Shown piece after piece: positions 1-34,336 of a stretch of DNA of 36,729 nt; the first letter of the stretch is position 1; every line of letters begins with the position of its first letter. Under the pieces are notes generated by a model. That model ran no database searches, had not been told where the DNA came from, and saw only the letters and a program-made list of their open reading frames with translations. The DNA is from Eubacteriales bacterium (GTDB lineage Bacteria > Bacillota > Clostridia > Oscillospirales > CAG-272). Both the position numbers and the translations under genes were made by a program. The stretch is from assembly GCA_045530875.1 (NCBI GenBank), contig JAZSCY010000265.1, positions 1 to 36,729 of the forward strand, written 5' to 3'.

Positions 1-312
1 AGCCGTCACCCCAGCCGTAACCCGAGCCGTAACCCGAGCCGGAACCCGAGCCGGAACCCGAGCCGGAACCCGAGCCGGAACCCGAGCCGGAACCCCGGCC
101 GTCACCCGAGCCGTCACCCCGGCCGTCACCCGAGCCGTCACCCGAGCCGTAACCCGAGCCGTCACCCCAGCCGTAACCCGAGCCGTAACCCGAGCCGGAA
201 CCCGAGCCGGAACCCGAGCCGGAACCCGAGCCGGAACCCGAGCCGGAACCCCGGCCGTCACCCGAGCCGTCACCCCGGCCGTCACCCGAGCCGTAACCCC
301 GGCCGTCACCGA
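1..312. repeat. Nested tandem repeat: 12-nt basic unit (ccgagccggaac and variants) arranged as two 156-nt higher-order copies (1-156, 157-312)
   Basis: Read directly. The string agccgtcaccccagccgtaacccgagccgtaacccgagccggaac at 1-46 recurs at 157-202, and each copy continues with a run of ccgagccggaac units. Confidence 0.95.
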
Positions 313-316
313 TCAT
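1..316 (-). CDS. 5' part of a (Gly-X)n dipeptide-repeat protein, ATG at 316-314, running off the window start (partial; probably continues at 36729)
   Basis: Minus-strand translation gives MIGDGRGYGSGDGRGDGSGDGR(GS)10GYGSGYGWGDGSGYGSGDGSGDGRGDGSGDGR(GS)10GYGSGYGWGDG with no stop. Gly codons alternate ggc/ggt and are invariant, and all unit-to-unit differences fall in the X codons. The start lies 23 nt after the stop of the upstream gene. The RBS is weak. Confidence 0.5.
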   Translation of the reverse strand, partial: MIGDGRGYGSGDGRGDGSGDGRGSGSGSGSGSGSGSGSGSGSGYGSGYGWGDGSGYGSGDGSGDGRGDGSGDGRGSGSGSGSGSGSGSGSGSGSGYGSGYGWGDG

Positions 317-339
317 CAAAAACGCCCTGATTTTCTCGC

Positions 340-630
340 TCAGTTTCGCTTCCACTCTTTTACCTCCCTGATGCTTTCGACAGCCTTGTCCGTACACGGA
401 ATAATCTGGATCGGCTCCATCACAGACATTTCCGGCACAGTAACGGTAAACTGACATCCGCTTGGTTCGGTCGTCCCGTCCATTGCGAGCTGTTCCACAG
501 CGCAGGCGCCAGCCCAGTGCCACAGCTTCCGCACATCCTCCATGACAACTTCCTTGTCGCTTCTTTCCCGGATCCGTCCAAAGAACACGCCGGCATTTGC
601 ACATCTTACGATATAGTATTTGTTATCCAT
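340..630 (-). CDS. Hypothetical early protein (96 aa)
   Basis: ATG at 630 preceded by AAAGGAG. Packed within the early operon. No family recognised. Confidence 0.7.
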   Translation of the reverse strand: MDNKYYIVRCANAGVFFGRIRERSDKEVVMEDVRKLWHWAGACAVEQLAMDGTTEPSGCQFTVTVPEMSVMEPIQIIPCTDKAVESIREVKEWKRN

Positions 631-5729: not shown

Positions 5730-5931
5730 CTTCCGATACCCCGATTGTCACAGTTTTGTCGAAACACTTCTTTGTATCTGTGCAGTGCGCTTTTGTGCAG
5801 TTCAGGCAGATTTGTGCACGTTCCGCCTTGATGTCCGTCCGTGCATCCGGCTTTGCGGGACGATGGCTGTCCACCGCTGTGGATCCCCAGAACCGCCCGG
5901 CCTGTCCGGCCCCTGTACGAATGTATCTCAT
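5722..5931 (-). CDS. Small Cys-containing protein (69 aa)
   Basis: ATG 5931 forms an ATGA overlap with the stop of 5928-6332 and follows GGAGGA. Contains a CLNC...C...C motif. Confidence 0.5.
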   Translation of the reverse strand: MRYIRTGAGQAGRFWGSTAVDSHRPAKPDARTDIKAERAQICLNCTKAHCTDTKKCFDKTVTIGVSEDD

Positions 5932-6332
5932 GATGCGTCCTCCACTTTCCGGCCGACATACTCCTCGAAGTCGGTCTGATTGATGTAATAGTTGTACTGC
6001 CCCGATCCCTCGTTTTTTACGGCGAAACCGAACGGGAATCGCCCCTGCTGCAGCATGACCCGCAGCCACTGCGCCGGCTTTCCCATGATCCGCGCCGCCG
6101 TTTCCACGGGGACGTTGGTACCCCGCTGCCGGACGGCCTTCGGCCTGTCAAGATCGCCGGGCGTACAACCAAGAGCCGCCGCCAGCCGCTCCAGAACCTC
6201 CCGGCCCGGTTTGATGTGGCCTTTAAGGTAAACGGTCAGCGACCCCTTGGAAACGCCGGAACGCTCCGAAAGCTGCGCCGTGGAAAGGTCGTGCGCTATC
6301 ATCAGAGACTTAAGATTTGTCGCTATGCTCAT
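5928..6332 (-). CDS. Two-HTH DNA-binding protein (XRE-type N-terminus plus excisionase/MerR-like HTH C-terminus)
   Basis: The N-terminus is LKSLMIAHDLSTAQLSERSGVSKGSLTVYLKG. The C-terminus, VETAARIMGKPAQWLRVMLQQGRFPFG...YYI, resembles the Xis-type HTH_17. ATG 6332 follows AGGAGG. Confidence 0.7.
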   Translation of the reverse strand: MSIATNLKSLMIAHDLSTAQLSERSGVSKGSLTVYLKGHIKPGREVLERLAAALGCTPGDLDRPKAVRQRGTNVPVETAARIMGKPAQWLRVMLQQGRFPFGFAVKNEGSGQYNYYINQTDFEEYVGRKVEDAS

Positions 6333-6540
6333 GTGGTACCTCCTTGAGAAGATCTTCAATAGAGCATCCGAACAGCTCGGCCAGCTTGGCGGCATTCAGC
6401 AGAGAAAGCTGCTTGGTGCCCCGTTCGATCTGCAGAACCATGGTCTGATTAACGCCGAGGATTTTTGCAACCTCATCCTGCGTGTATCCAGCATCCTTCC
6501 GGCGTTCCCGCAGGGTGTTACCAATCGTAGCGTGAGACAT
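6310..6540 (-). CDS. Cro-like XRE-family repressor (76 aa)
   Basis: LRERRKDAGYTQDEVAKILGVNQTMVLQIERG is a classic XRE HTH. It is the first gene of the leftward operon and diverges from the CI-like gene. Confidence 0.8.
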   Translation of the reverse strand: MSHATIGNTLRERRKDAGYTQDEVAKILGVNQTMVLQIERGTKQLSLLNAAKLAELFGCSIEDLLKEVPHEHSDKS

Positions 6541-6592
6541 TGTTTTATCACCCTTTCATCTCATTTCAAAAGTATGAAAATCTCATTTTATA

Positions 6593-6622
6593 TTGACAAA
6601 TCGTGTAAACCTGTGTTATACT
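6593..6622 (+). promoter_or_regulatory. Rightward promoter for the CI-like gene: TTGACA (6593-6598), 18-nt spacer, TGtTATACT extended -10 (6614-6622)
   Basis: Read directly. The predicted start is near 6629, giving a leader of about 134 nt. Confidence 0.55.
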
Positions 6623-6658
6623 AATATCACGGTTATACAGCGGTTATCCTGTGGTTAT

Positions 6659-6687
6659 ATTATACCTCATTCTTAATGAGATGTCAA
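6659..6687 (-). promoter_or_regulatory. Leftward (lytic) promoter with perfect consensus: TTGACA (6687-6682), 17-nt spacer, TATAAT (6664-6659)
   Basis: The reverse complement reads TTGACAtctcattaagaatgaggTATAAT. The spacer is filled by a palindromic operator. Confidence 0.65.
6666..6680. promoter_or_regulatory. Operator O1: perfect 6-3-6 palindrome CTCATT-ctt-AATGAG inside the spacer of the leftward promoter
   Basis: Read directly. This is the classic position for a repressor operator. Confidence 0.55.
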
Positions 6688-6695
6688 TAAGAAAT

Positions 6696-6762: not shown

Positions 6763-7119
6763 ATGTTTTGGAATAATTATGTAAAACTGTGTGAGCAAAA
6801 AGGAAAGACCCCAAACGCTGTTGCCGCCGAACTCGGTCTTTCGTCTGGATCAGTAACAGCATGGAAACAAGGAAGACTGCCCCGGGGTGGTACTATTGAA
6901 ATGATAGCAAGGTACTTTGAGGTAGAGCCTGCCTATCTTTTGAACGACAATGAGATAAGACACACTACCCCCACCACAGAAGACCCGCTGACCGCCCGGA
7001 TTATCACCTTATCCGAACTTCTCTCCAAAACCGACTCCGGCATTGCCAGACTGAAGATCATCGTGGAAGACATGGAGCGAGCTGCCGAACGGGAACAATC
7101 GGGGACAGAACCAAAATAA
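6763..7119 (+). CDS. CI-like XRE-family repressor (118 aa, no peptidase domain)
   Basis: KGKTPNAVAAELGLSSGSVTAWKQGRLP is an XRE HTH. AGGAG RBS. Diverges from the Cro-like gene. Confidence 0.8.
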   Translation: MFWNNYVKLCEQKGKTPNAVAAELGLSSGSVTAWKQGRLPRGGTIEMIARYFEVEPAYLLNDNEIRHTTPTTEDPLTARIITLSELLSKTDSGIARLKIIVEDMERAAEREQSGTEPK

Positions 7120-7147
7120 AAAAAGCTACCGGGGGTCATCCGGCAGC
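7111..7147 (-). terminator. Intrinsic terminator for the small minus-strand gene (also closes the CI-like gene region)
   Basis: On the minus strand it reads GCTGCCGG-atgaccc-CCGGTAGC followed by TTTTTTTATTTT. There is one mismatch in the 8-bp stem. The hairpin overlaps the stop of 7136-7303. Confidence 0.5.
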
Positions 7148-7303
7148 TTCCTCTTTGGCCAGAGCTTCAAGCCGCTCCAAAAAGGCTTCTTTACGCTCTC
7201 GTGTAAGATAAGGTAGCGCAGCCTTGATTCGTTCCACAATCTGCATACGGTATTCCTCCGTGAAGTCGCTGGTGCAATCATCTTTCATCTGAGCAGTTTT
7301 CAT
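7136..7303 (-). CDS. Small hypothetical protein (55 aa) antisense-oriented within the lysogeny module
   Basis: ATG 7303 (MKTAQMKDD...) follows AAAGGAA. A possible promoter is TTGCGG-17-TGgTATACT at 7363-7391. No family recognised. Confidence 0.4.
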   Translation of the reverse strand: MKTAQMKDDCTSDFTEEYRMQIVERIKAALPYLTRERKEAFLERLEALAKEEAAG

Positions 7304-7502
7304 GTGTATAAATTCCTTTCTGTGCGGCAGGATCATCCGGTGGATCCTTGCTCTGTACCCAGAGTATACCAGAAGCCAACAACCGCCGCAATACCCAAAC
7401 AAGGCGAATCCGACACCAAAAAATGCTCCCGCAGACGGAGCCGTAAACGATTTTTAAGAGCCGAAGCCGGTTTTTTGGCCGAAAACGGCGGAAAGAGGCC
7501 AC

Positions 7503-7985
7503 ATGGAGAATATAATAGACCGCCTGAAGGACAAAAAAAGAGAGCTGGACGTGACAAACGCCTGGATCGCAGAAAAGTCCGGTGTCCCTGAATCCACCGT
7601 GACAAAGGTGTTCAACGGCACCAACAAATCTCCGACCATTGCCACCCTCGGCCCTATCGCCGCCGCCATGGGTGTATCCATAGACGCCGGTGTGATCGTG
7701 TCCACCGACGAAACCAAACCCGGCCAGCCCATCGTGCCGGAGGATATTTATCTGAAAATGTTAATCGCCAGCTATGATAGACAGCTCGAAAACGCCGAAG
7801 CCCGGATACGCCGGAAAAACAAATGGATCCTGGCTTTTGCCATCGCATTCGCCTTGATGTTTGTCCTGCTCCTGCTGGTGATGCTGTACGACGCTACCCG
7901 CCCTGACATAGGATGGTTCCAGTATCAGGAGATGATGCGGGGGGTGTCCGTAATGGATGTACTAAGAAGAATGTTTACTGTGTGA
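7503..7985 (+). CDS. Membrane-anchored XRE-type HTH protein (160 aa)
   Basis: The N-terminal HTH is NAWIAEKSGVPESTVTKVFNG. There is one clear TM segment, WILAFAIAFALMFVLLLLVML, near the C-terminus. Confidence 0.75.
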   Translation: MENIIDRLKDKKRELDVTNAWIAEKSGVPESTVTKVFNGTNKSPTIATLGPIAAAMGVSIDAGVIVSTDETKPGQPIVPEDIYLKMLIASYDRQLENAEARIRRKNKWILAFAIAFALMFVLLLLVMLYDATRPDIGWFQYQEMMRGVSVMDVLRRMFTV

Positions 7986-7994
7986 GGTGATAGG

Positions 7995-9374
7995 ATGATA
8001 AAAACATGGCTTGTTGTAGTTGCATATCTCCTTTTTTGGCCGTTTATTCTACCTTATCATTTTGGATACAAAAAAGCAAAAAAAGAAAGCAACGCATCTG
8101 ATCATTCCGAAGAAATAAGATCGTATAAAGAAAAAATCCGGGAGCTGGAAGCAAAAAATAAAGCCCTCAAATCCTCCGCTCCTGCAGTATCTAAAAAAGA
8201 AGTTACCGATACGGATCTGGAAAAGAAAATTGCCGCACTGCAAAAAAAACTGCATAATATGCAGGAACTATACAAAGCAGTGGAATATGCGCTTCAGAAC
8301 AGCGAGTTTCTTTCTCCGGAATTATCCAAACAATATGAAGAACTCTGTCCTACGGTAATCCTTCATCTGCATTCCATGGATTCCAAAAGCCTGCAGCAGG
8401 AATTCCGTTTGAATGATAAACAGATACAAGAAACCGTTGCACAATTTGAATCCAGATACAGCACAAAAACAATAGCTGCTATCTACAAATTGATGGCTAT
8501 AGCAATGCGAGCGGAATTGCAGAATATCCTGTATGCCCTGAAGTACGAAAAACTGGACAATGCAATCTCATCTGTCCGTGAGATGACGGCCAAGTATTAC
8601 GCCATCGCCATTGAAGGGAACCAGACCATCGCCGGGACACTCAAAGAGTACATATCCAAGATAGAATATCTATTTATAAACGCAGTAAAGATCGAATACA
8701 ACTACTACGTGAAGCGGGAACAGGCCAAAGCTGAACAGGCAGCTCTCCGGGAACAGATGCGCATCGAAGCCGCTGAGCGGAAAAAGCTGGAAGAAGAACA
8801 GAAGAAAATCGAAAAGGAAGAATCCAAGTATAAGGCCGAAATTGATAAGATCAGAGAATCACTCCAGACTGCCGCAGATGCCGAACGTAAAAAGATGGAA
8901 GCACGGATCGCAGAACTGCAAAACCAGCTTGCCGAAGTTGCTGTCAAGAAGGAAGAGATCATCCATCTGCAGAACGGAAAAGCCGGAACCGTGTACATCA
9001 TCAGCAATCTGGGTGCTTTCGGCGAAAACGTATTCAAGATCGGCATGACCCGCCGTCAGGAGCCTCAGGATCGTGTGGACGAGCTGGGCGACGCCAGTGT
9101 GCCGTTCCGATTTGACGTACACAGCTTTATTTTCTCCGAAGACGCTGTAGGTTTGGAAACTGAACTGCATCACATACTGAATGAAAAGCGTGTAAACAAG
9201 GTGAATCTCCGGAAGGAGTTCTTCAATGTCACCATAGAGGAGTTGCAGGAACTTGTGTATAAACTGGATCCCACTGCATCCTTCACCACCACTATGGCAG
9301 CAGAAGAATACCGACAGTCTATGTCCGGTCAGATCTATACAAGTGATTTTGTGAGCATAACAGAAGATGAATAA
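7995..9374 (+). CDS. Membrane-anchored coiled-coil protein with DUF4041-like middle region and a C-terminal T5orf172/GIY-YIG-like nuclease domain; candidate anti-phage defence or superinfection exclusion
   Basis: The N-terminal TM is WLVVVAYLLFWPFILPY. Long Lys/Glu coiled coils follow. The C-terminus GTVYIISNLGAFGENVFKIGMTRRQEPQDRVDELGDASVPFRFDVHSFIFSEDAVGLETELHHIL...RKEFFNV is the T5orf172 signature. The gene is visibly more AT-rich than the phage backbone. Confidence 0.75.
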   Translation: MIKTWLVVVAYLLFWPFILPYHFGYKKAKKESNASDHSEEIRSYKEKIRELEAKNKALKSSAPAVSKKEVTDTDLEKKIAALQKKLHNMQELYKAVEYALQNSEFLSPELSKQYEELCPTVILHLHSMDSKSLQQEFRLNDKQIQETVAQFESRYSTKTIAAIYKLMAIAMRAELQNILYALKYEKLDNAISSVREMTAKYYAIAIEGNQTIAGTLKEYISKIEYLFINAVKIEYNYYVKREQAKAEQAALREQMRIEAAERKKLEEEQKKIEKEESKYKAEIDKIRESLQTAADAERKKMEARIAELQNQLAEVAVKKEEIIHLQNGKAGTVYIISNLGAFGENVFKIGMTRRQEPQDRVDELGDASVPFRFDVHSFIFSEDAVGLETELHHILNEKRVNKVNLRKEFFNVTIEELQELVYKLDPTASFTTTMAAEEYRQSMSGQIYTSDFVSITEDE

Positions 9375-9379
9375 CAAAC

Positions 9380-9407
9380 AAGGCAGGATCCCGCAAGACC
9401 CTGCCTT
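9380..9407 (+). terminator. Hairpin after 7995-9374 (weak terminator or attenuator before the integrase gene)
   Basis: AAGGCAGG (9380-9387) pairs with CCTGCCTT (9400-9407), followed by a short T tract. Confidence 0.35.
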
Positions 9408-9426
9408 TCCTTATAGGAGGTGCCCA

Positions 9427-10473
9427 ATGAGAAACCCAAACGGATGGGGATCCGTCCACAAACTCCCCGGAAACAGGCGCCGGCCATGGCGTGCCCGAAT
9501 CACCTCCGGATGGACTGCGGACGAAAGCGGAAAGGTCCGGCAGCAGTATAAAACTATCGGATGGTATGCCACCCGCGAGGAAGCGATGACCGCCCTTGCG
9601 GAATACAATGCCAACCCTTATGAGCTGGACGACGCAATCACCTTTGCAGAGCTGTACGACAAGTGGTCGGGCGAGAAATTCCCCACCATCAGCAAATCAA
9701 ACGTCAGCGGATACAAAGCCAGCTATAAGGTCTGCGGCGCGCTGTACAACATGAAATTTGCCGAAATCCGCCGTTCGCACCTGCAGGGTGTCATCGACAG
9801 CTGCGGAAAAGAATACCCAACCATGCGGAAGATAAAGGTATTCTTCCGCCAGATCTTCGACTACGCCATCCAGAATGATTTGTGCACCACCAACTACGGC
9901 CAGTACGTCAACATCGCCCAGTACAAACCAAAGCCCGGAGAAAAAGAAGAAAAACACAAGCCTTTCTCCGACGCAGAAATCGAAACGCTGTGGGATAATA
10001 TCGCCCGGAATGAATACATCGGTATCATCCTCATCATGATATACAGCGGCATCCGGATCGGAGAGCTGTGCCAGATCCAAAAGGAGCACGTGCATCTGGA
10101 TGAACGGTATTTTGATATTCCCAGATTTAAAACCGACGCCGGTGCCCGGAAGGTCCCGATCGCAGAGAAGGTGGTTCCGCTGTGGACGCACTGGATGAGC
10201 CTGCCGGGAGAATATTTTCTGCAGAAGCCAACCGGAGGCGGCATGGAAACGAGCACATACCGCGATACCTATTTCACGGATATACTGGAGCAGATCGAAA
10301 TGGATCATCTCCCCCACGATACCCGGCACACGTGCATCACCCTGATGCAGAGAGCAGAGGTGCCCAAAACAATAATCCGCCGCATCGTAGGCCACGCCGA
10401 CCGAGACGTGACGGATCAGGTGTATACCCATTATGAGATAAATCAGCTCATAGATGCAATCAATAAAATATAG
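9427..10473 (+). CDS. int: Tyrosine integrase (phage integrase family)
   Basis: The N-terminal SAM-like part is followed by a catalytic region with IRIGEL (Arg), HDTRHTCITLM (H-x-x-R) and GHADRDVTDQVYTHY (His...Tyr). Start set at ATG 9427, after AGGAGG. Confidence 0.9.
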   Translation: MRNPNGWGSVHKLPGNRRRPWRARITSGWTADESGKVRQQYKTIGWYATREEAMTALAEYNANPYELDDAITFAELYDKWSGEKFPTISKSNVSGYKASYKVCGALYNMKFAEIRRSHLQGVIDSCGKEYPTMRKIKVFFRQIFDYAIQNDLCTTNYGQYVNIAQYKPKPGEKEEKHKPFSDAEIETLWDNIARNEYIGIILIMIYSGIRIGELCQIQKEHVHLDERYFDIPRFKTDAGARKVPIAEKVVPLWTHWMSLPGEYFLQKPTGGGMETSTYRDTYFTDILEQIEMDHLPHDTRHTCITLMQRAEVPKTIIRRIVGHADRDVTDQVYTHYEINQLIDAINKI

Positions 10474-10577: not shown

Positions 10578-10615
10578 AAAAACCACCCCATATGAGGTGG
10601 TTTTGTTCTTTTCTT
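10578..10615 (+). terminator. Strong intrinsic terminator after the integrase gene
   Basis: AAAACCACC-ccatatga-GGTGGTTTT followed by GTTCTTTTCTT. Confidence 0.7.
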
Positions 10616-10706
10616 CCGGTGTTTGTTTATCTCTTTGAGAAGTTTTCAACGGAAAATAACAGTGATTTCTCTATATCAAAGAAGATTTTGAGTATTACGT
10701 GAGTTT

Positions 10707-10736
10707 AAAAAAGAAGCCCCACTCTGGAGCTTCTTT
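10707..10736 (-). terminator. Intrinsic terminator ending the minus-strand cargo operon
   Basis: On the minus strand AAGAAGC...GCTTCTT (10711-10717 with 10729-10735) is followed by a T run (plus-strand A run 10707-10710), immediately after the stop at 10739. Confidence 0.5.
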
Positions 10737-33136: not shown

Positions 33137-34336
33137 TCAGTTCAGCTTAACAGCCTTCCCGCCCGTGAAATTCTCCCACCGACGGATGATTACATCACAG
33201 TATTTCGGATCAAGCTCCATCATATAACAGGTGCGGTCTAATTGTTCGCAAGCAATCAATGTTGTACCTGTGCCACCAAACAAATCAAGCACACAATCGT
33301 TTTTGTTTGAAAAATTGTTGATATAATTAGAAACAAATTCAACTGAAAATGTAGCTGCGTGAATGTTTGAAAATTCGTTTTTTCTTTGCGGTGAACAATC
33401 AAAAACATTTGAAACCGTTCCCCTAAAATTATTTGTGCCAACAGCGCGAGAATTGTTTTCTTGACTAAAAAATAAAACAAATTCAAATTGCGAGTTCATC
33501 ACTCTTTCGGCCATCGCTGGTGCCGTTGTTGTTTTTCTCCAAATTGCAATGTCGCAAAGTTGTTCTTTGAATTTATGCAAATAATCGCAAAACACCAATT
33601 TGTTTCCCGCCAACATTTGAATATTTATTATCGCATATTTTGAAAACAAAATTCCGTTTTCTGTTGACTTAAATAACAGTTCATCATAATTGTCTAAATC
33701 ATCGTTGTTTGACAGATATTTACTATCCGTTGTATGCGTGTTACCCGACAATTTTTCACTCGCCCCTGCGTTATAAGGCGGAGAAGTAAATTCTATATCC
33801 GCTTTCTTGCCATCCATCAGCATTTCCACGGTTGCCTTATCGGTGCTGTCACCACACATCAGCTTATGTCTGCCCAACCGCCAAATATCGCCCGACTTAG
33901 CAATCGGCTCTGCATCTTCATCCGCCTCTGGTGTCTCATCTTCCACAACCTCGCCGGGAGACGCCAAAAAACTGACCGATTTTGGGAGATCAAACTCAAA
34001 CCCCGACAGATCCAGCTCCGGCAGCTCCTCCGCCAGAAGCCCCAGATCCCACGGTGATTCGTTCGCTTTGTTGTCCTCGATCCGCAGCGCATTCACCTGC
34101 TCCGGCGTCAGATCCTCCACCGATACGCACGGCACCTCCGCCATACCCAGCTTTTTTGCCGCCAAAACCCGGCAGTGCCCGATCACAATAACCCCGTCCC
34201 GGTCAACCACCACCGGCTGGACAAAGCCGTACTGCCGGATAGACTCTGCCACATTGGCAATCTGCCGCCGGTCGTGCTTCTTGGCGTTCTTCTCATAAGG
34301 GATAAGCTCCCCGACGGGTCTGTTCACAACGTCCAT
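33137..34336 (-). CDS. ParB-like nuclease domain fused to a DNA methyltransferase (N6-A/N4-C type, SPPY motif)
   Basis: The N-terminus IPYEKNAKKHDRRQIANVAESIRQYGFVQPVVVD...IGHCRVLAAKKLG is a ParB/Srx fold. The MTase part has LMCGDS, TSPPYN and a C-terminal FGGTGTT SAM-binding loop. Confidence 0.85.
   Translation of the reverse strand: MDVVNRPVGELIPYEKNAKKHDRRQIANVAESIRQYGFVQPVVVDRDGVIVIGHCRVLAAKKLGMAEVPCVSVEDLTPEQVNALRIEDNKANESPWDLGLLAEELPELDLSGFEFDLPKSVSFLASPGEVVEDETPEADEDAEPIAKSGDIWRLGRHKLMCGDSTDKATVEMLMDGKKADIEFTSPPYNAGASEKLSGNTHTTDSKYLSNNDDLDNYDELLFKSTENGILFSKYAIINIQMLAGNKLVFCDYLHKFKEQLCDIAIWRKTTTAPAMAERVMNSQFEFVLFFSQENNSRAVGTNNFRGTVSNVFDCSPQRKNEFSNIHAATFSVEFVSNYINNFSNKNDCVLDLFGGTGTTLIACEQLDRTCYMMELDPKYCDVIIRRWENFTGGKAVKLN

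What the first reader, a model, noticed from the sequence alone, without database searches (positions are those of the whole stretch)
7503..9374. Lysogeny-module cassette: membrane HTH protein plus membrane-anchored DUF4041/T5orf172 nuclease-like protein (candidate defence)
Two plus-strand genes 9 nt apart sit between the repressor and the integrase, the classic slot for prophage-expressed exclusion genes. The 459-aa protein has an N-terminal TM helix, long coiled coils, and a C-terminal T5orf172 (GIY-YIG-related) signature (FKIGMT...RVDELG...PF...E...H). As far as I recall, this domain order (TM, DUF4041, T5orf172-type nuclease) matches a recently described membrane-bound nuclease defence protein that attacks injected phage DNA (named SNIPE); that recollection needs checking. 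The partner, an XRE HTH tethered by a C-terminal TM helix, is not something I associate with that system and could be a sensor or regulator. The cassette is visibly more AT-rich than the backbone, which suggests horizontal acquisition.
Basis: partly seen in the sequence, partly recalled or inferred. Interest (0 to 1): 0.65.

Follow-up and report, generated by a model that had tools for sequence, protein, structure and literature searches.

The report
SNIPE-like prophage nuclease, unlinked HTH neighbour
A gut-bacterial prophage carries, between its repressor and integrase, a swappable gene for a membrane-anchored nuclease related to the recently described SNIPE anti-phage defence. The neighbouring membrane-tethered DNA-binding protein is a fixed part of the phage backbone and not the nuclease's partner.

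Summary
Both ORFs exist as described: 7503-7985 (160 aa, XRE HTH with a C-terminal TM helix) and 7995-9374 (459 aa), 9 nt apart, between a cI-like gene and the integrase.

The 459-aa protein matches the PADLOC PD-Lambda-1 (= SNIPE) profile at 5e-83 over most of its length. It has an N-terminal hydrophobic anchor, a long helix and a T5orf172/GIY-YIG domain, and the catalytic Glu is conserved (E388 = SNIPE E414).

The Pfam DUF4041 signature is absent. The central region alone scores no better than shuffles against DUF4041-type homologues. I therefore call it a divergent SNIPE-like variant.

The partnership idea fails:
- DNA homology with sister phages stops at 7990 and resumes at 9427, so SNIPE sits in a swappable slot.
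- HTH-TM homologues are followed by at least six other unrelated envelope proteins.
- 80%-identical SNIPE genes sit directly after a LexA-like repressor.
- 0 of 80 viral SNIPE loci have an HTH-TM gene.
- Only the SNIPE gene is AT-rich (43.8% GC against 52.4% for HTH-TM).

Verdict: mostly ordinary single-gene defence cargo. The HTH-TM family and its envelope-cargo slot are the less-charted part.

The parts
6763..7119 (+). cI-like XRE repressor gene (118 aa). Context: left end of the lysogeny module.
   Evidence: HTH_26 1e-06, HTH_3 2e-06, phrog_8 2e-11. Face-to-face promoter-like sites at 6593-6622 (+) and 6687-6659 (-) lie between it and the cro-like gene 6310-6540.
7136..7304 (-). Small convergent ORF (about 56 aa from the ATG at 7304) with a strong terminator-like hairpin at 7118-7154. 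It separates the cI-like gene from the HTH-TM operon.
   Evidence: ORF list; terminator scan, 15-bp stem plus T-run; start codon and ribosome-binding site conserved in the alignment. A 33-71 aa minus-strand ORF sits at the same place in most related loci.
7503..7985 (+). HTH-TM gene (160 aa). XRE HTH at residues 1-62 (nt 7503-7688), linker, TM helix at about residues 105-130 (nt 7815-7892), and a 30-residue external tail with the conserved YDxTxxDxGW motif. This is a backbone gene of the phage lineage.
   Evidence: Pfam HTH_3 6e-07; KD 3.1; AF2; family alignment. GC and GC3 equal to the integrase. DNA homology with six sister contigs runs through it and stops at 7989/7990.
7991..9426 (+). Swappable cargo slot, here filled by the SNIPE-like gene plus a hairpin.
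   Evidence: blastn: homology of L004-L009 to the window ends at 7989-7990. L007 resumes at 9427 at 93% identity. Other phages hold unrelated genes in the slot.
7995..9374 (+). SNIPE-like membrane-anchored nuclease gene (459 aa).
   Evidence: PADLOC PD-Lambda-1 5e-83, residues 30-444 against profile positions 72-471 of 491; phrog_1847 3e-96; more than 7,900 homologues; 30% identity to the E. coli SNIPE proxy.
7995..8270 (+). Variable N-terminal region: TM anchor at residues 1-24 (nt 7995-8066) plus a short coiled segment.
   Evidence: KD 1.94 followed by KKAKK; AF2 helix 2-32. In L020 DNA homology is lost over 7991-8270 although both flanks match. Close homologues have different but still hydrophobic N-termini.
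8208..8612 (+). Central all-helical domain (residues 72-206), standing where SNIPE has DUF4041. Residues 76-165 are conserved in the subfamily but have no detectable counterpart in canonical SNIPE.
   Evidence: AF2 helices 72-102, 108-117, 130-153, 158-182, 187-206. No Pfam DUF4041 hit. hhalign of this region alone gives E=0.19. The isolated region scores no better than shuffles. Collinear extension is seen only in full-length alignments.
8622..8972 (+). Long charged helix or coiled coil (residues 210-326) linking the central domain to the nuclease.
   Evidence: AF2 helices 210-290 and 295-326. Aligns with the E. coli SNIPE helix at high posterior probability.
8979..9326 (+). T5orf172 / GIY-YIG-type nuclease domain (residues 329-444). 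The catalytic Glu E388 is encoded at nt 9156-9158.
   Evidence: MUG113 4e-18, T5orf172 1e-13. Invariant Y334, K348, G350, R353, R354, E388, H392, N401, N404, E408. E388 aligns with E414 of the SNIPE proxy. Foldseek hits to T5orf172 proteins.
9380..9407 (.). 12-bp stem hairpin just after the nuclease stop codon, with no T-run on the + strand. It lies inside the cargo slot.
   Evidence: Terminator scan; sequence.
9427..10473 (+). Tyrosine integrase with a revised start, followed by a bidirectional terminator-like hairpin at 10579-10604. attP lies at roughly 10641-10707.
   Evidence: Phage_integrase 3e-19; ribosome-binding site TAGGAGGTG; homology with L007 and L010 starts at 9427, and homology with L007 and L011 ends at 10641-10646; hairpin.

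Best explanation
The window is a temperate tailed phage of gut Clostridia. Its lysogeny operon reads HTH-TM, then a cargo slot, then the integrase.

The cargo here is a single-gene, SNIPE-like defence. An N-terminal helix anchors the protein in the cytoplasmic membrane. A helical central domain and a long helix hold a GIY-YIG/T5orf172 nuclease under the membrane. By analogy with E. coli SNIPE (inferred, not shown here), the nuclease cuts DNA of superinfecting tailed phages as it is injected. The chromosome and the resident prophage are spared because the enzyme is confined to the membrane.

The gene was acquired horizontally and exchanges by recombination in the conserved flanking genes. Its N-terminal anchor region is exchanged separately.

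The HTH-TM protein is not part of this system. It is a conserved backbone protein of the phage lineage, a membrane-tethered XRE DNA-binding protein. Its most likely role (inferred) is a membrane-bound one-component regulator of the lysogeny operon. It always precedes whatever envelope-acting cargo occupies the slot.
For: SNIPE relationship:
- Full-length PD-Lambda-1 profile hits.
- An HMM built from 10 DUF4041-type phage homologues gives 5e-86 over residues 31-444.
- Full-length hhalign gives 100% probability over window 165-445 against E. coli 197-473.
- The catalytic Glu and the GIY-YIG core are invariant.
- TM followed by positive-inside charges; AF2 architecture.
- The mechanism and single-gene sufficiency of SNIPE are published, including that SNIPE does not harm an induced resident prophage (PMC13190303).

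Cargo status:
- Mosaic boundaries at 7990 and 9427.
- GC 43.8% against 52-54% for its neighbours and the window.
- The same slot holds SNIPE homologues in EJ-1, phiS10, PMBT9 and 813R9 without any HTH-TM gene.

Independence of the HTH-TM gene:
- A 91%-identical HTH-TM is followed by a 234-aa protein, while a 41%-identical HTH-TM is followed by a 75%-identical SNIPE.
- 80%-identical SNIPE genes lie directly after an HTH-S24 repressor.
- 0 of 80 IMG/VR SNIPE loci have an HTH-TM family member, or any HTH plus C-terminal-TM ORF, upstream.

The slot holds seven unrelated cargo types (SNIPE and six others), all with an N-terminal TM helix or a lipoprotein signal.
Against: - No experiment or expression data. 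Only DNA runs from animal gut or faeces were found.
- DUF4041, which is essential in E. coli SNIPE for DNA and tape-measure binding, is not detectable here. Target recognition could therefore differ.
- The N-terminal hydrophobic stretch is only moderately hydrophobic (KD 1.94) and contains two prolines.
- The host is a monoderm with no ManYZ evidence.
- The 9-nt spacing and the ribosome-binding site overlapping the stop codon imply co-translation with HTH-TM, so a regulatory influence of HTH-TM on the cargo is not excluded.
- None of the alternative cargo proteins hits a known defence family.
Confidence: 0.75

Rival explanations
1. The two genes form a dedicated two-component defence. The membrane HTH protein senses infection or regulates the nuclease, and the nuclease needs it.
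For: Same strand, 9-nt gap, ribosome-binding site overlapping the stop codon. The pair recurs in L020 and L011-L013. Both proteins are membrane-anchored with cytoplasmic DNA-binding or DNA-cutting parts.
Against: - The genes assort independently in both directions.
- The recombination breakpoint lies exactly between them.
- There is no co-divergence: HTH-TM at 41% identity goes with SNIPE at 75%, and HTH-TM at 91% goes with different cargo.
- Their base composition differs.
- 0 of 80 viral SNIPE loci have such a neighbour.
- E. coli SNIPE works alone.
Confidence: 0.06
2. HTH-TM is a generic membrane-bound regulator, or itself an exclusion factor, that works with whichever envelope protein is in the slot. 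For example it could sense envelope perturbation and control transcription of the cargo and the integrase, or tether DNA at the membrane.
For: - The order cI-like / HTH-TM / cargo / integrase is the same in all loci seen, usually with a small minus-strand ORF between the cI-like and HTH-TM genes. The cargo often starts 3-25 nt after the HTH-TM stop.
- All seven cargo types are envelope proteins.
- The external motif YDxTHPxxGW is conserved.
- There are 521 representative clusters at E<=1e-10, and 139 of 141 top representatives have the TM helix.
- Sequence elements upstream of the gene are conserved.
- From my own knowledge: BcrR of Enterococcus is a membrane-bound XRE-type one-component regulator.
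Against: No binding site, expression or phenotype data exist. Some cargo genes lie 200-300 nt downstream and may have their own promoters. Related phages with a LexA-like repressor carry SNIPE with no HTH-TM gene at all.
Confidence: 0.25
3. The 459-aa protein is not a defence protein. It serves the phage's own DNA metabolism (a homing-type or replication-associated T5orf172 nuclease) or chromosome segregation, as many database records name its homologues.
For: T5orf172 domains occur in lytic phages and giant viruses in other contexts. Homologues are annotated 'chromosome segregation ATPase', 'helicase' or 'replication'.
Against: - No ATPase or helicase family is hit.
- The gene lies in the lysogeny operon on the prophage-expressed strand, not among the replication genes.
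- It is dispensable cargo, replaced by unrelated envelope proteins in sister phages.
- The full-length match is to an experimentally validated defence protein.
Confidence: 0.04

Closest known systems
SNIPE (formerly PD-lambda-1) of E. coli. Saxton et al., Nature 2026 (PMC13190303); first found by Vassallo et al. 2022.
   Same: - Single gene.
- N-terminal single-pass anchor with only 4-5 residues outside and a basic stretch inside.
- A helical middle part and a long helix.
- A C-terminal GIY-YIG/T5orf172 nuclease about 50% identical to SNIPE's, with the catalytic Glu conserved (E388 = E414).
- Full-length profile match at 5e-83.
- Often carried in prophage lysogeny modules.
- Variable N-terminal region.

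   Different: - Only 30% identity overall.
- The Pfam DUF4041 signature is absent, and the central region alone is not recognisably homologous.
- A subfamily-specific conserved segment at residues 76-165 has no counterpart.
- The host is a monoderm Clostridium-type bacterium, so ManYZ association cannot be assumed.
- No function has been tested.
DUF4041 proteins in the repressor-integrase slot of Firmicutes and enterobacterial temperate phages: EJ-1 ORF3, phiS10_003, PMBT9, vB_EcoM-813R9.
   Same: Same genomic slot (repressor, nuclease, integrase), same strand logic and same nuclease domain.
   Different: The one tested here, EJ-1 ORF3, keeps the Pfam DUF4041 signature, and all four loci lack an HTH-TM neighbour.
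Superinfection-exclusion genes of lysogeny modules: Ltp lipoprotein of S. thermophilus TP-J34, Sie2009 of lactococcal P335 phages, gp15 of HK97 (from my own knowledge).
   Same: These are envelope-located, prophage-expressed proteins encoded between repressor and integrase that block DNA entry. The alternative occupants of this slot (136-139 aa lipoproteins, N-terminally anchored proteins) fit that picture.
   Different: No sequence relationship was shown. The cargo proteins hit no Pfam or PADLOC family.
Membrane-bound one-component regulators with an N-terminal XRE HTH, such as BcrR of Enterococcus faecalis, and RodZ (from my own knowledge).
   Same: The HTH-TM protein has a cytoplasmic XRE-type HTH tethered by a TM helix.
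   Different: It has one TM helix and only a 30-residue external tail, and no RodZ or BcrR family hit. The nearest solved HTH domains are SinR and prophage Lp1 protein 11.

Membership tests
SNIPE / PD-lambda-1 | Significant near-full-length match to the PD-Lambda-1 profile used by defence finders | tested here: met
   PDLC03976 5e-83 (residues 30-444 against profile positions 72-471 of 491) and PDLC03977 1e-78. The positive control, E. coli PhiR26_1 PD-lambda-1, gives 2e-198.
SNIPE / PD-lambda-1 | N-terminal membrane anchor, with the bulk of the protein cytoplasmic | tested here: met
   Prediction only. KD 1.94 over residues 1-24, followed by KKAKK (positive-inside rule), and AF2 helix 2-32. 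Close homologues have other hydrophobic N-termini. Topology was not tested experimentally.
SNIPE / PD-lambda-1 | Central DUF4041 domain (Pfam PF13250), which binds DNA and the tape measure protein | tested here: not met
   - No PF13250 hit at E<=10, while E. coli SNIPE (1e-19) and EJ-1 (1e-15) do hit.
- None of the 120 best homologues carries PF13250.
- hhalign of the central region alone gives E=0.19.
- Isolated residues 1-240 score no better than 200 shuffles.
- A helical domain stands at the same position and aligns collinearly only in full-length alignments.
SNIPE / PD-lambda-1 | C-terminal GIY-YIG/T5orf172 nuclease with the catalytic Glu (E414 in SNIPE) | tested here: met
   T5orf172 1e-13, MUG113 4e-18. 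E388 aligns with E414 and is invariant. Fold matches to T5orf172 proteins.
SNIPE / PD-lambda-1 | Acts as a single gene, with no obligatory partner | tested here: met
   Shown by genomic context only. Homologues 80% identical to it lack the HTH-TM gene, and 0 of 80 viral loci have one.
SNIPE / PD-lambda-1 | Protects by cutting phage DNA during injection and associates with the tape measure protein | not testable with these tools
   Needs phage challenge, labelled-DNA injection and crosslinking assays as in PMC13190303.
XRE-family HTH (HTH_3) | Cro/C1-type helix-turn-helix domain | tested here: met
   The 160-aa protein hits HTH_3 at 6e-07, above the gathering score. The family profile hits SinR and Lp1 protein 11 in the PDB. 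AF2 shows a four-helix HTH at residues 2-55.
Two-gene defence system (HTH-TM plus SNIPE) | Conserved linkage and co-divergence of the two genes | tested here: not met
   Linkage is seen in 3 of about 14 HTH-TM contexts and in 0 of 80 viral SNIPE loci, with a breakpoint between the genes.

The most novel reading that the evidence does not exclude
The small HTH-TM protein family (HTH, linker, TM helix, then YDxTHPxxGW outside) is an uncharacterised membrane-bound regulator or exclusion factor of Clostridial temperate phages. It marks a dedicated landing pad for envelope-acting anti-phage cargo, including SNIPE-like nucleases, lipoproteins and anchored proteins of unknown function. The SNIPE-like subfamily found there has replaced or remodelled the DUF4041 recognition domain, which implies a different way of recognising incoming phages in monoderm hosts.
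Probability: 0.2. Interest if true: 0.55.

Novelty: new variant of a known kind. Interest (0 to 1): 0.33.

Why it matters
- It extends the newly described SNIPE strategy, a membrane-confined nuclease that cuts DNA during injection, to prophages of gut Clostridia.
- A very large subfamily (thousands of metagenomic proteins) lacks the recognisable DUF4041 module that E. coli SNIPE uses to bind DNA and tape measure proteins.
- A precisely bounded cargo slot in these phages is always filled with an envelope protein. The six other cargo families are therefore cheap candidates for new entry-blocking defences.
- It removes a tempting but wrong two-gene system from consideration.

Tried and rejected
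- DNA search of the region against GenBank phages: no near match.
- NCBIfam: only weak coiled-coil noise.
- PDB sequence and fold searches for the nuclease protein: nothing useful. The whole-chain fold query was dominated by helices.
- The BFVD fold search confirmed only the T5orf172 fold and could not judge the central domain.
- RNA-seq evidence for prophage expression: only DNA metagenome runs hold the sequence.
- Rfam: no family in the window.
- Repeats flanking the cargo slot as signs of site-specific insertion: none convincing.
- A sigma-70 promoter for the HTH-TM operon: none found between 7403 and 7502.
- A genome-contig scan for HTH-TM relatives returned only HTH-Uma2 fusions that share the HTH alone.
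- PADLOC and Pfam on the alternative cargo proteins: no informative hits.
- Cluster names for wider HTH-TM relatives: none carry a name.
Full report
OBSERVATION

A GAGGTG ribosome-binding site overlaps the TGA of the first gene.

Upstream lie a cI-like HTH gene (6763-7119), a small convergent ORF (7136-7304 from its conserved ATG) and a strong terminator-like hairpin at 7118-7154. Downstream is a tyrosine integrase (Phage_integrase 3e-19). Its real start is most likely 9427, because a TAGGAGGTG ribosome-binding site precedes it and homology to sister phages begins exactly there.

The rest of the window encodes a tape measure protein, a portal, a large terminase, a RecE/YqaJ-like exonuclease and a ParB-methyltransferase fusion. 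The window is therefore a temperate tailed phage. Runs and contigs holding it, or close relatives of it, come from animal gut and faecal metagenomes. Homologues of the nuclease are named from Ruminococcus.

THE 459-AA PROTEIN

Profile matches:
- Pfam gives MUG113 (4e-18) and T5orf172 (1e-13) at residues 331-421.
- PADLOC gives PD-Lambda-1 at 5e-83 and 1e-78, covering residues 30-444 against profile positions 72-471 of 491.
- PHROGs gives phrog_1847 at 3e-96.

PD-lambda-1 was renamed SNIPE in Saxton et al., Nature 2026 (PMC13190303). It is a single protein with an N-terminal TM helix, a central DUF4041 and a C-terminal GIY-YIG nuclease. It sits in the inner membrane and cuts phage DNA during injection. 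It associates with ManYZ and the tape measure protein. The E414A substitution and deletion of DUF4041 each abolish defence. Removing the TM helix makes it cut the chromosome. It does not affect a resident prophage that is induced.

As a stand-in for SNIPE I used the 'PD-lambda-1' protein of Escherichia phage PhiR26_1. It carries E223, N250, W257, I308 and E414, all five residues named in the paper.

Against this proxy the window protein is 30% identical overall and about 50% identical in the nuclease domain. E388 aligns with E414, and the GIY-YIG core is invariant: Y334, K348, G350, R353, R354, E388, H392, N401, N404, E408.

Predicted architecture:
- The N-terminus (MIKTWLVVVAYLLFWPFILPYHFG, then KKAKK) reaches KD 1.94 and obeys the positive-inside rule.
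- AF2 (pLDDT 74) gives helix 2-32, a bundle of helices at 72-206, one 81-residue helix at 210-290 plus helix 295-326, and then an alpha/beta domain.
- That alpha/beta domain matches T5orf172 proteins in BFVD.

THE DUF4041 QUESTION

The Pfam DUF4041 model hits the SNIPE proxy (1e-19, residues 198-252) and EJ-1 ORF3 (1e-15). It does not hit the window protein even at E<=10. None of the 120 best homologues carries PF13250.

Full-length profile comparisons extend collinearly from the nuclease back to window residue 165, which aligns with E. coli residue 197, the start of DUF4041. That is an extension from strong C-terminal homology, not independent evidence:
- The central region alone gives hhalign E=0.19.
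- Isolated residues 1-240, 60-240 and 150-240 score no better than 200 shuffles against an HMM built from ten Pfam-DUF4041-type phage homologues.
- Residues 76-165 are strongly conserved within the subfamily but have no counterpart in those homologues.

A helical domain therefore stands where DUF4041 should be, but it is not recognisable as DUF4041. I call the protein a SNIPE-like variant and not a canonical member.

THE 160-AA PROTEIN

- It has HTH_3 (6e-07), a disordered linker, one long helix containing a very hydrophobic segment at about residues 105-130 (KD 3.1), and a 30-residue external tail.
- A word-indexed search found 36 relatives.
- An exhaustive profile search found 521 representative clusters at E<=1e-10 and 16 at E<=1e-30.
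- Of the top 141 representatives no longer than 250 aa, 139 have a TM helix in the C-terminal half, often followed by YDxTHPxxGW.
- None carries a name.
- The nearest solved HTH domains are SinR and prophage Lp1 protein 11.

ARE THE TWO GENES A PAIR?

No. Four lines of evidence agree.

(1) Contexts of HTH-TM homologues. All follow the same order: cI-like gene (+), usually a small ORF (-), HTH-TM (+), cargo (+), integrase (+). The cargo differs from phage to phage:
- SNIPE-like in the window, L020 and L011-L013.
- A 234-aa anchored protein in L005, L006 and L120.
- Proline/glutamate-rich anchored proteins of 293-299 aa in L007 and L008.
- Multi-TM proteins of 263-290 aa in L010 and L121-L123.
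- Lipoproteins of 136-139 aa in L014-L018 and L024.
- A 182-aa anchored protein in L117-L119.
- A 294-aa anchored protein in L124.

(2) Contexts of SNIPE homologues. Proteins 80% identical to it lie directly after an HTH-S24 repressor in related phages. None of 80 IMG/VR SNIPE loci has an HTH-TM family member upstream. The only upstream ORF there with a C-terminal TM helix has no HTH. EJ-1, phiS10, PMBT9 and 813R9 have the nuclease between repressor and integrase with no HTH-TM gene.

(3) No co-divergence. A 91%-identical HTH-TM goes with different cargo, while a 41%-identical HTH-TM goes with a 75%-identical SNIPE.

(4) Mosaic boundaries. DNA homology with six sister contigs stops at 7989-7990. 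L007 resumes at 9427 at 93% identity. In L020 the flanks and the gene body match, but nt 7991-8270 (the N-terminal 92 codons) do not. In L021-L023 only 8206-9348 matches.

Composition agrees. The nuclease gene is 43.8% GC (GC3 48%). HTH-TM and the integrase are both 52.4% (GC3 about 66.5%).

MECHANISM

Shown:
- Homology to SNIPE across the long helix and the nuclease, with an intact catalytic core.
- A predicted membrane anchor.
- Cargo status in a lysogeny operon.

Inferred:
- The protein is made in the lysogen. It sits under the membrane and cuts incoming DNA of superinfecting tailed phages. The chromosome and the resident prophage are out of reach, as was shown for E. coli SNIPE.
- The separately exchanged N-terminal region matches the paper's idea of an adapter region.

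How this variant recognises injection sites is open, because the DUF4041 module is not recognisable.

The HTH-TM protein is most likely a membrane-bound XRE-type regulator of the lysogeny operon, or an exclusion factor in its own right. That every one of the seven unrelated cargo types next to it is an envelope protein suggests the slot is reserved for functions acting at the cell surface. By chance this would be roughly 0.3^7, taking about 30% of proteins to be membrane proteins (my own estimate).

VERDICT

The SNIPE assignment is right in kind, with a real caveat on DUF4041. The partner and cassette reading is wrong. This is a divergent member of a just-described, widespread defence family in its usual prophage slot, so the interest is modest. 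The more open items are the HTH-TM family and the envelope-cargo slot.

Noticed in passing
window 7991-9426, and the same slot in L005, L007, L008, L010, L014-L018, L024, L117-L124: Every first gene in the slot after an HTH-TM gene encodes an envelope protein. There are seven unrelated types: SNIPE-like, 136-139 aa lipoproteins, and single- or multi-TM proteins of 182-299 aa. None of the six other types hits Pfam or PADLOC. They are candidate entry-blocking or exclusion genes.
   Followed up: partly
window 7364-7441: Upstream of the HTH-TM gene, GTATAC (7364-7369) and CAAYACCCAAACAAG (7389-7403) are nearly invariant even in distant sister phages. A hairpin at 7419-7441 keeps its stem through different sequences in L011 and L120. 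On the minus strand it is followed by a T-run. The elements could be an operator, a promoter or a terminator.
   Followed up: partly
window 7136-7304 (-) and 7118-7154: A small convergent ORF (about 56 aa, MKTAQMKDD...) with a 15-bp terminator hairpin sits between the cI-like gene and the HTH-TM gene. A 33-71 aa minus-strand ORF holds the same place in most related loci. It has no family hit.
   Followed up: partly
window 7995-8270 compared with L020 5001-5204: The N-terminal 92 codons of the nuclease gene (anchor and first coil) are replaced in a phage whose flanks and gene body are otherwise 81-89% identical. This is separate shuffling of the anchor/adapter region.
   Followed up: partly
window 9367-9427: The listed integrase ORF starts at 9367, overlapping the nuclease stop codon. 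The ATG at 9427, with a TAGGAGGTG ribosome-binding site, is where homology to sister integrases begins. A 12-bp hairpin at 9380-9407 lies in between.
   Followed up: yes
window 6565-6690: A perfect-consensus minus-strand promoter (TTGACA-17-TATAAT, 6687-6659) faces an 11/12 plus-strand promoter (6593-6622) between the cro-like and cI-like genes. This is the probable genetic switch.
   Followed up: no
window 10579-10707: A bidirectional terminator-like hairpin at 10579-10604 follows the integrase. Homology with sister phages breaks between about 10641 and 10707, the probable attP region.
   Followed up: no
window 33137-34336 (-): A ParB-like domain fused to a DNA methyltransferase (phrog_498 7e-97, phrog_620 2e-42). 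It may be an anti-restriction or self-protection function of the phage.
   Followed up: no
window 5928-6395 (-) and 6310-6540 (-): A 155-aa HTH ORF overlaps the 76-aa cro-like ORF in another frame. Related phages call a 133-135 aa protein here, so the true start is probably an internal Met. Its C-terminus resembles HTH_17/Cox-type excisionase regulators.
   Followed up: no
L027-L030 (Clostridia MAGs): Proteins that share only the HTH with the HTH-TM family are fused to a Uma2-type putative restriction endonuclease domain (about 1e-28).
   Followed up: partly
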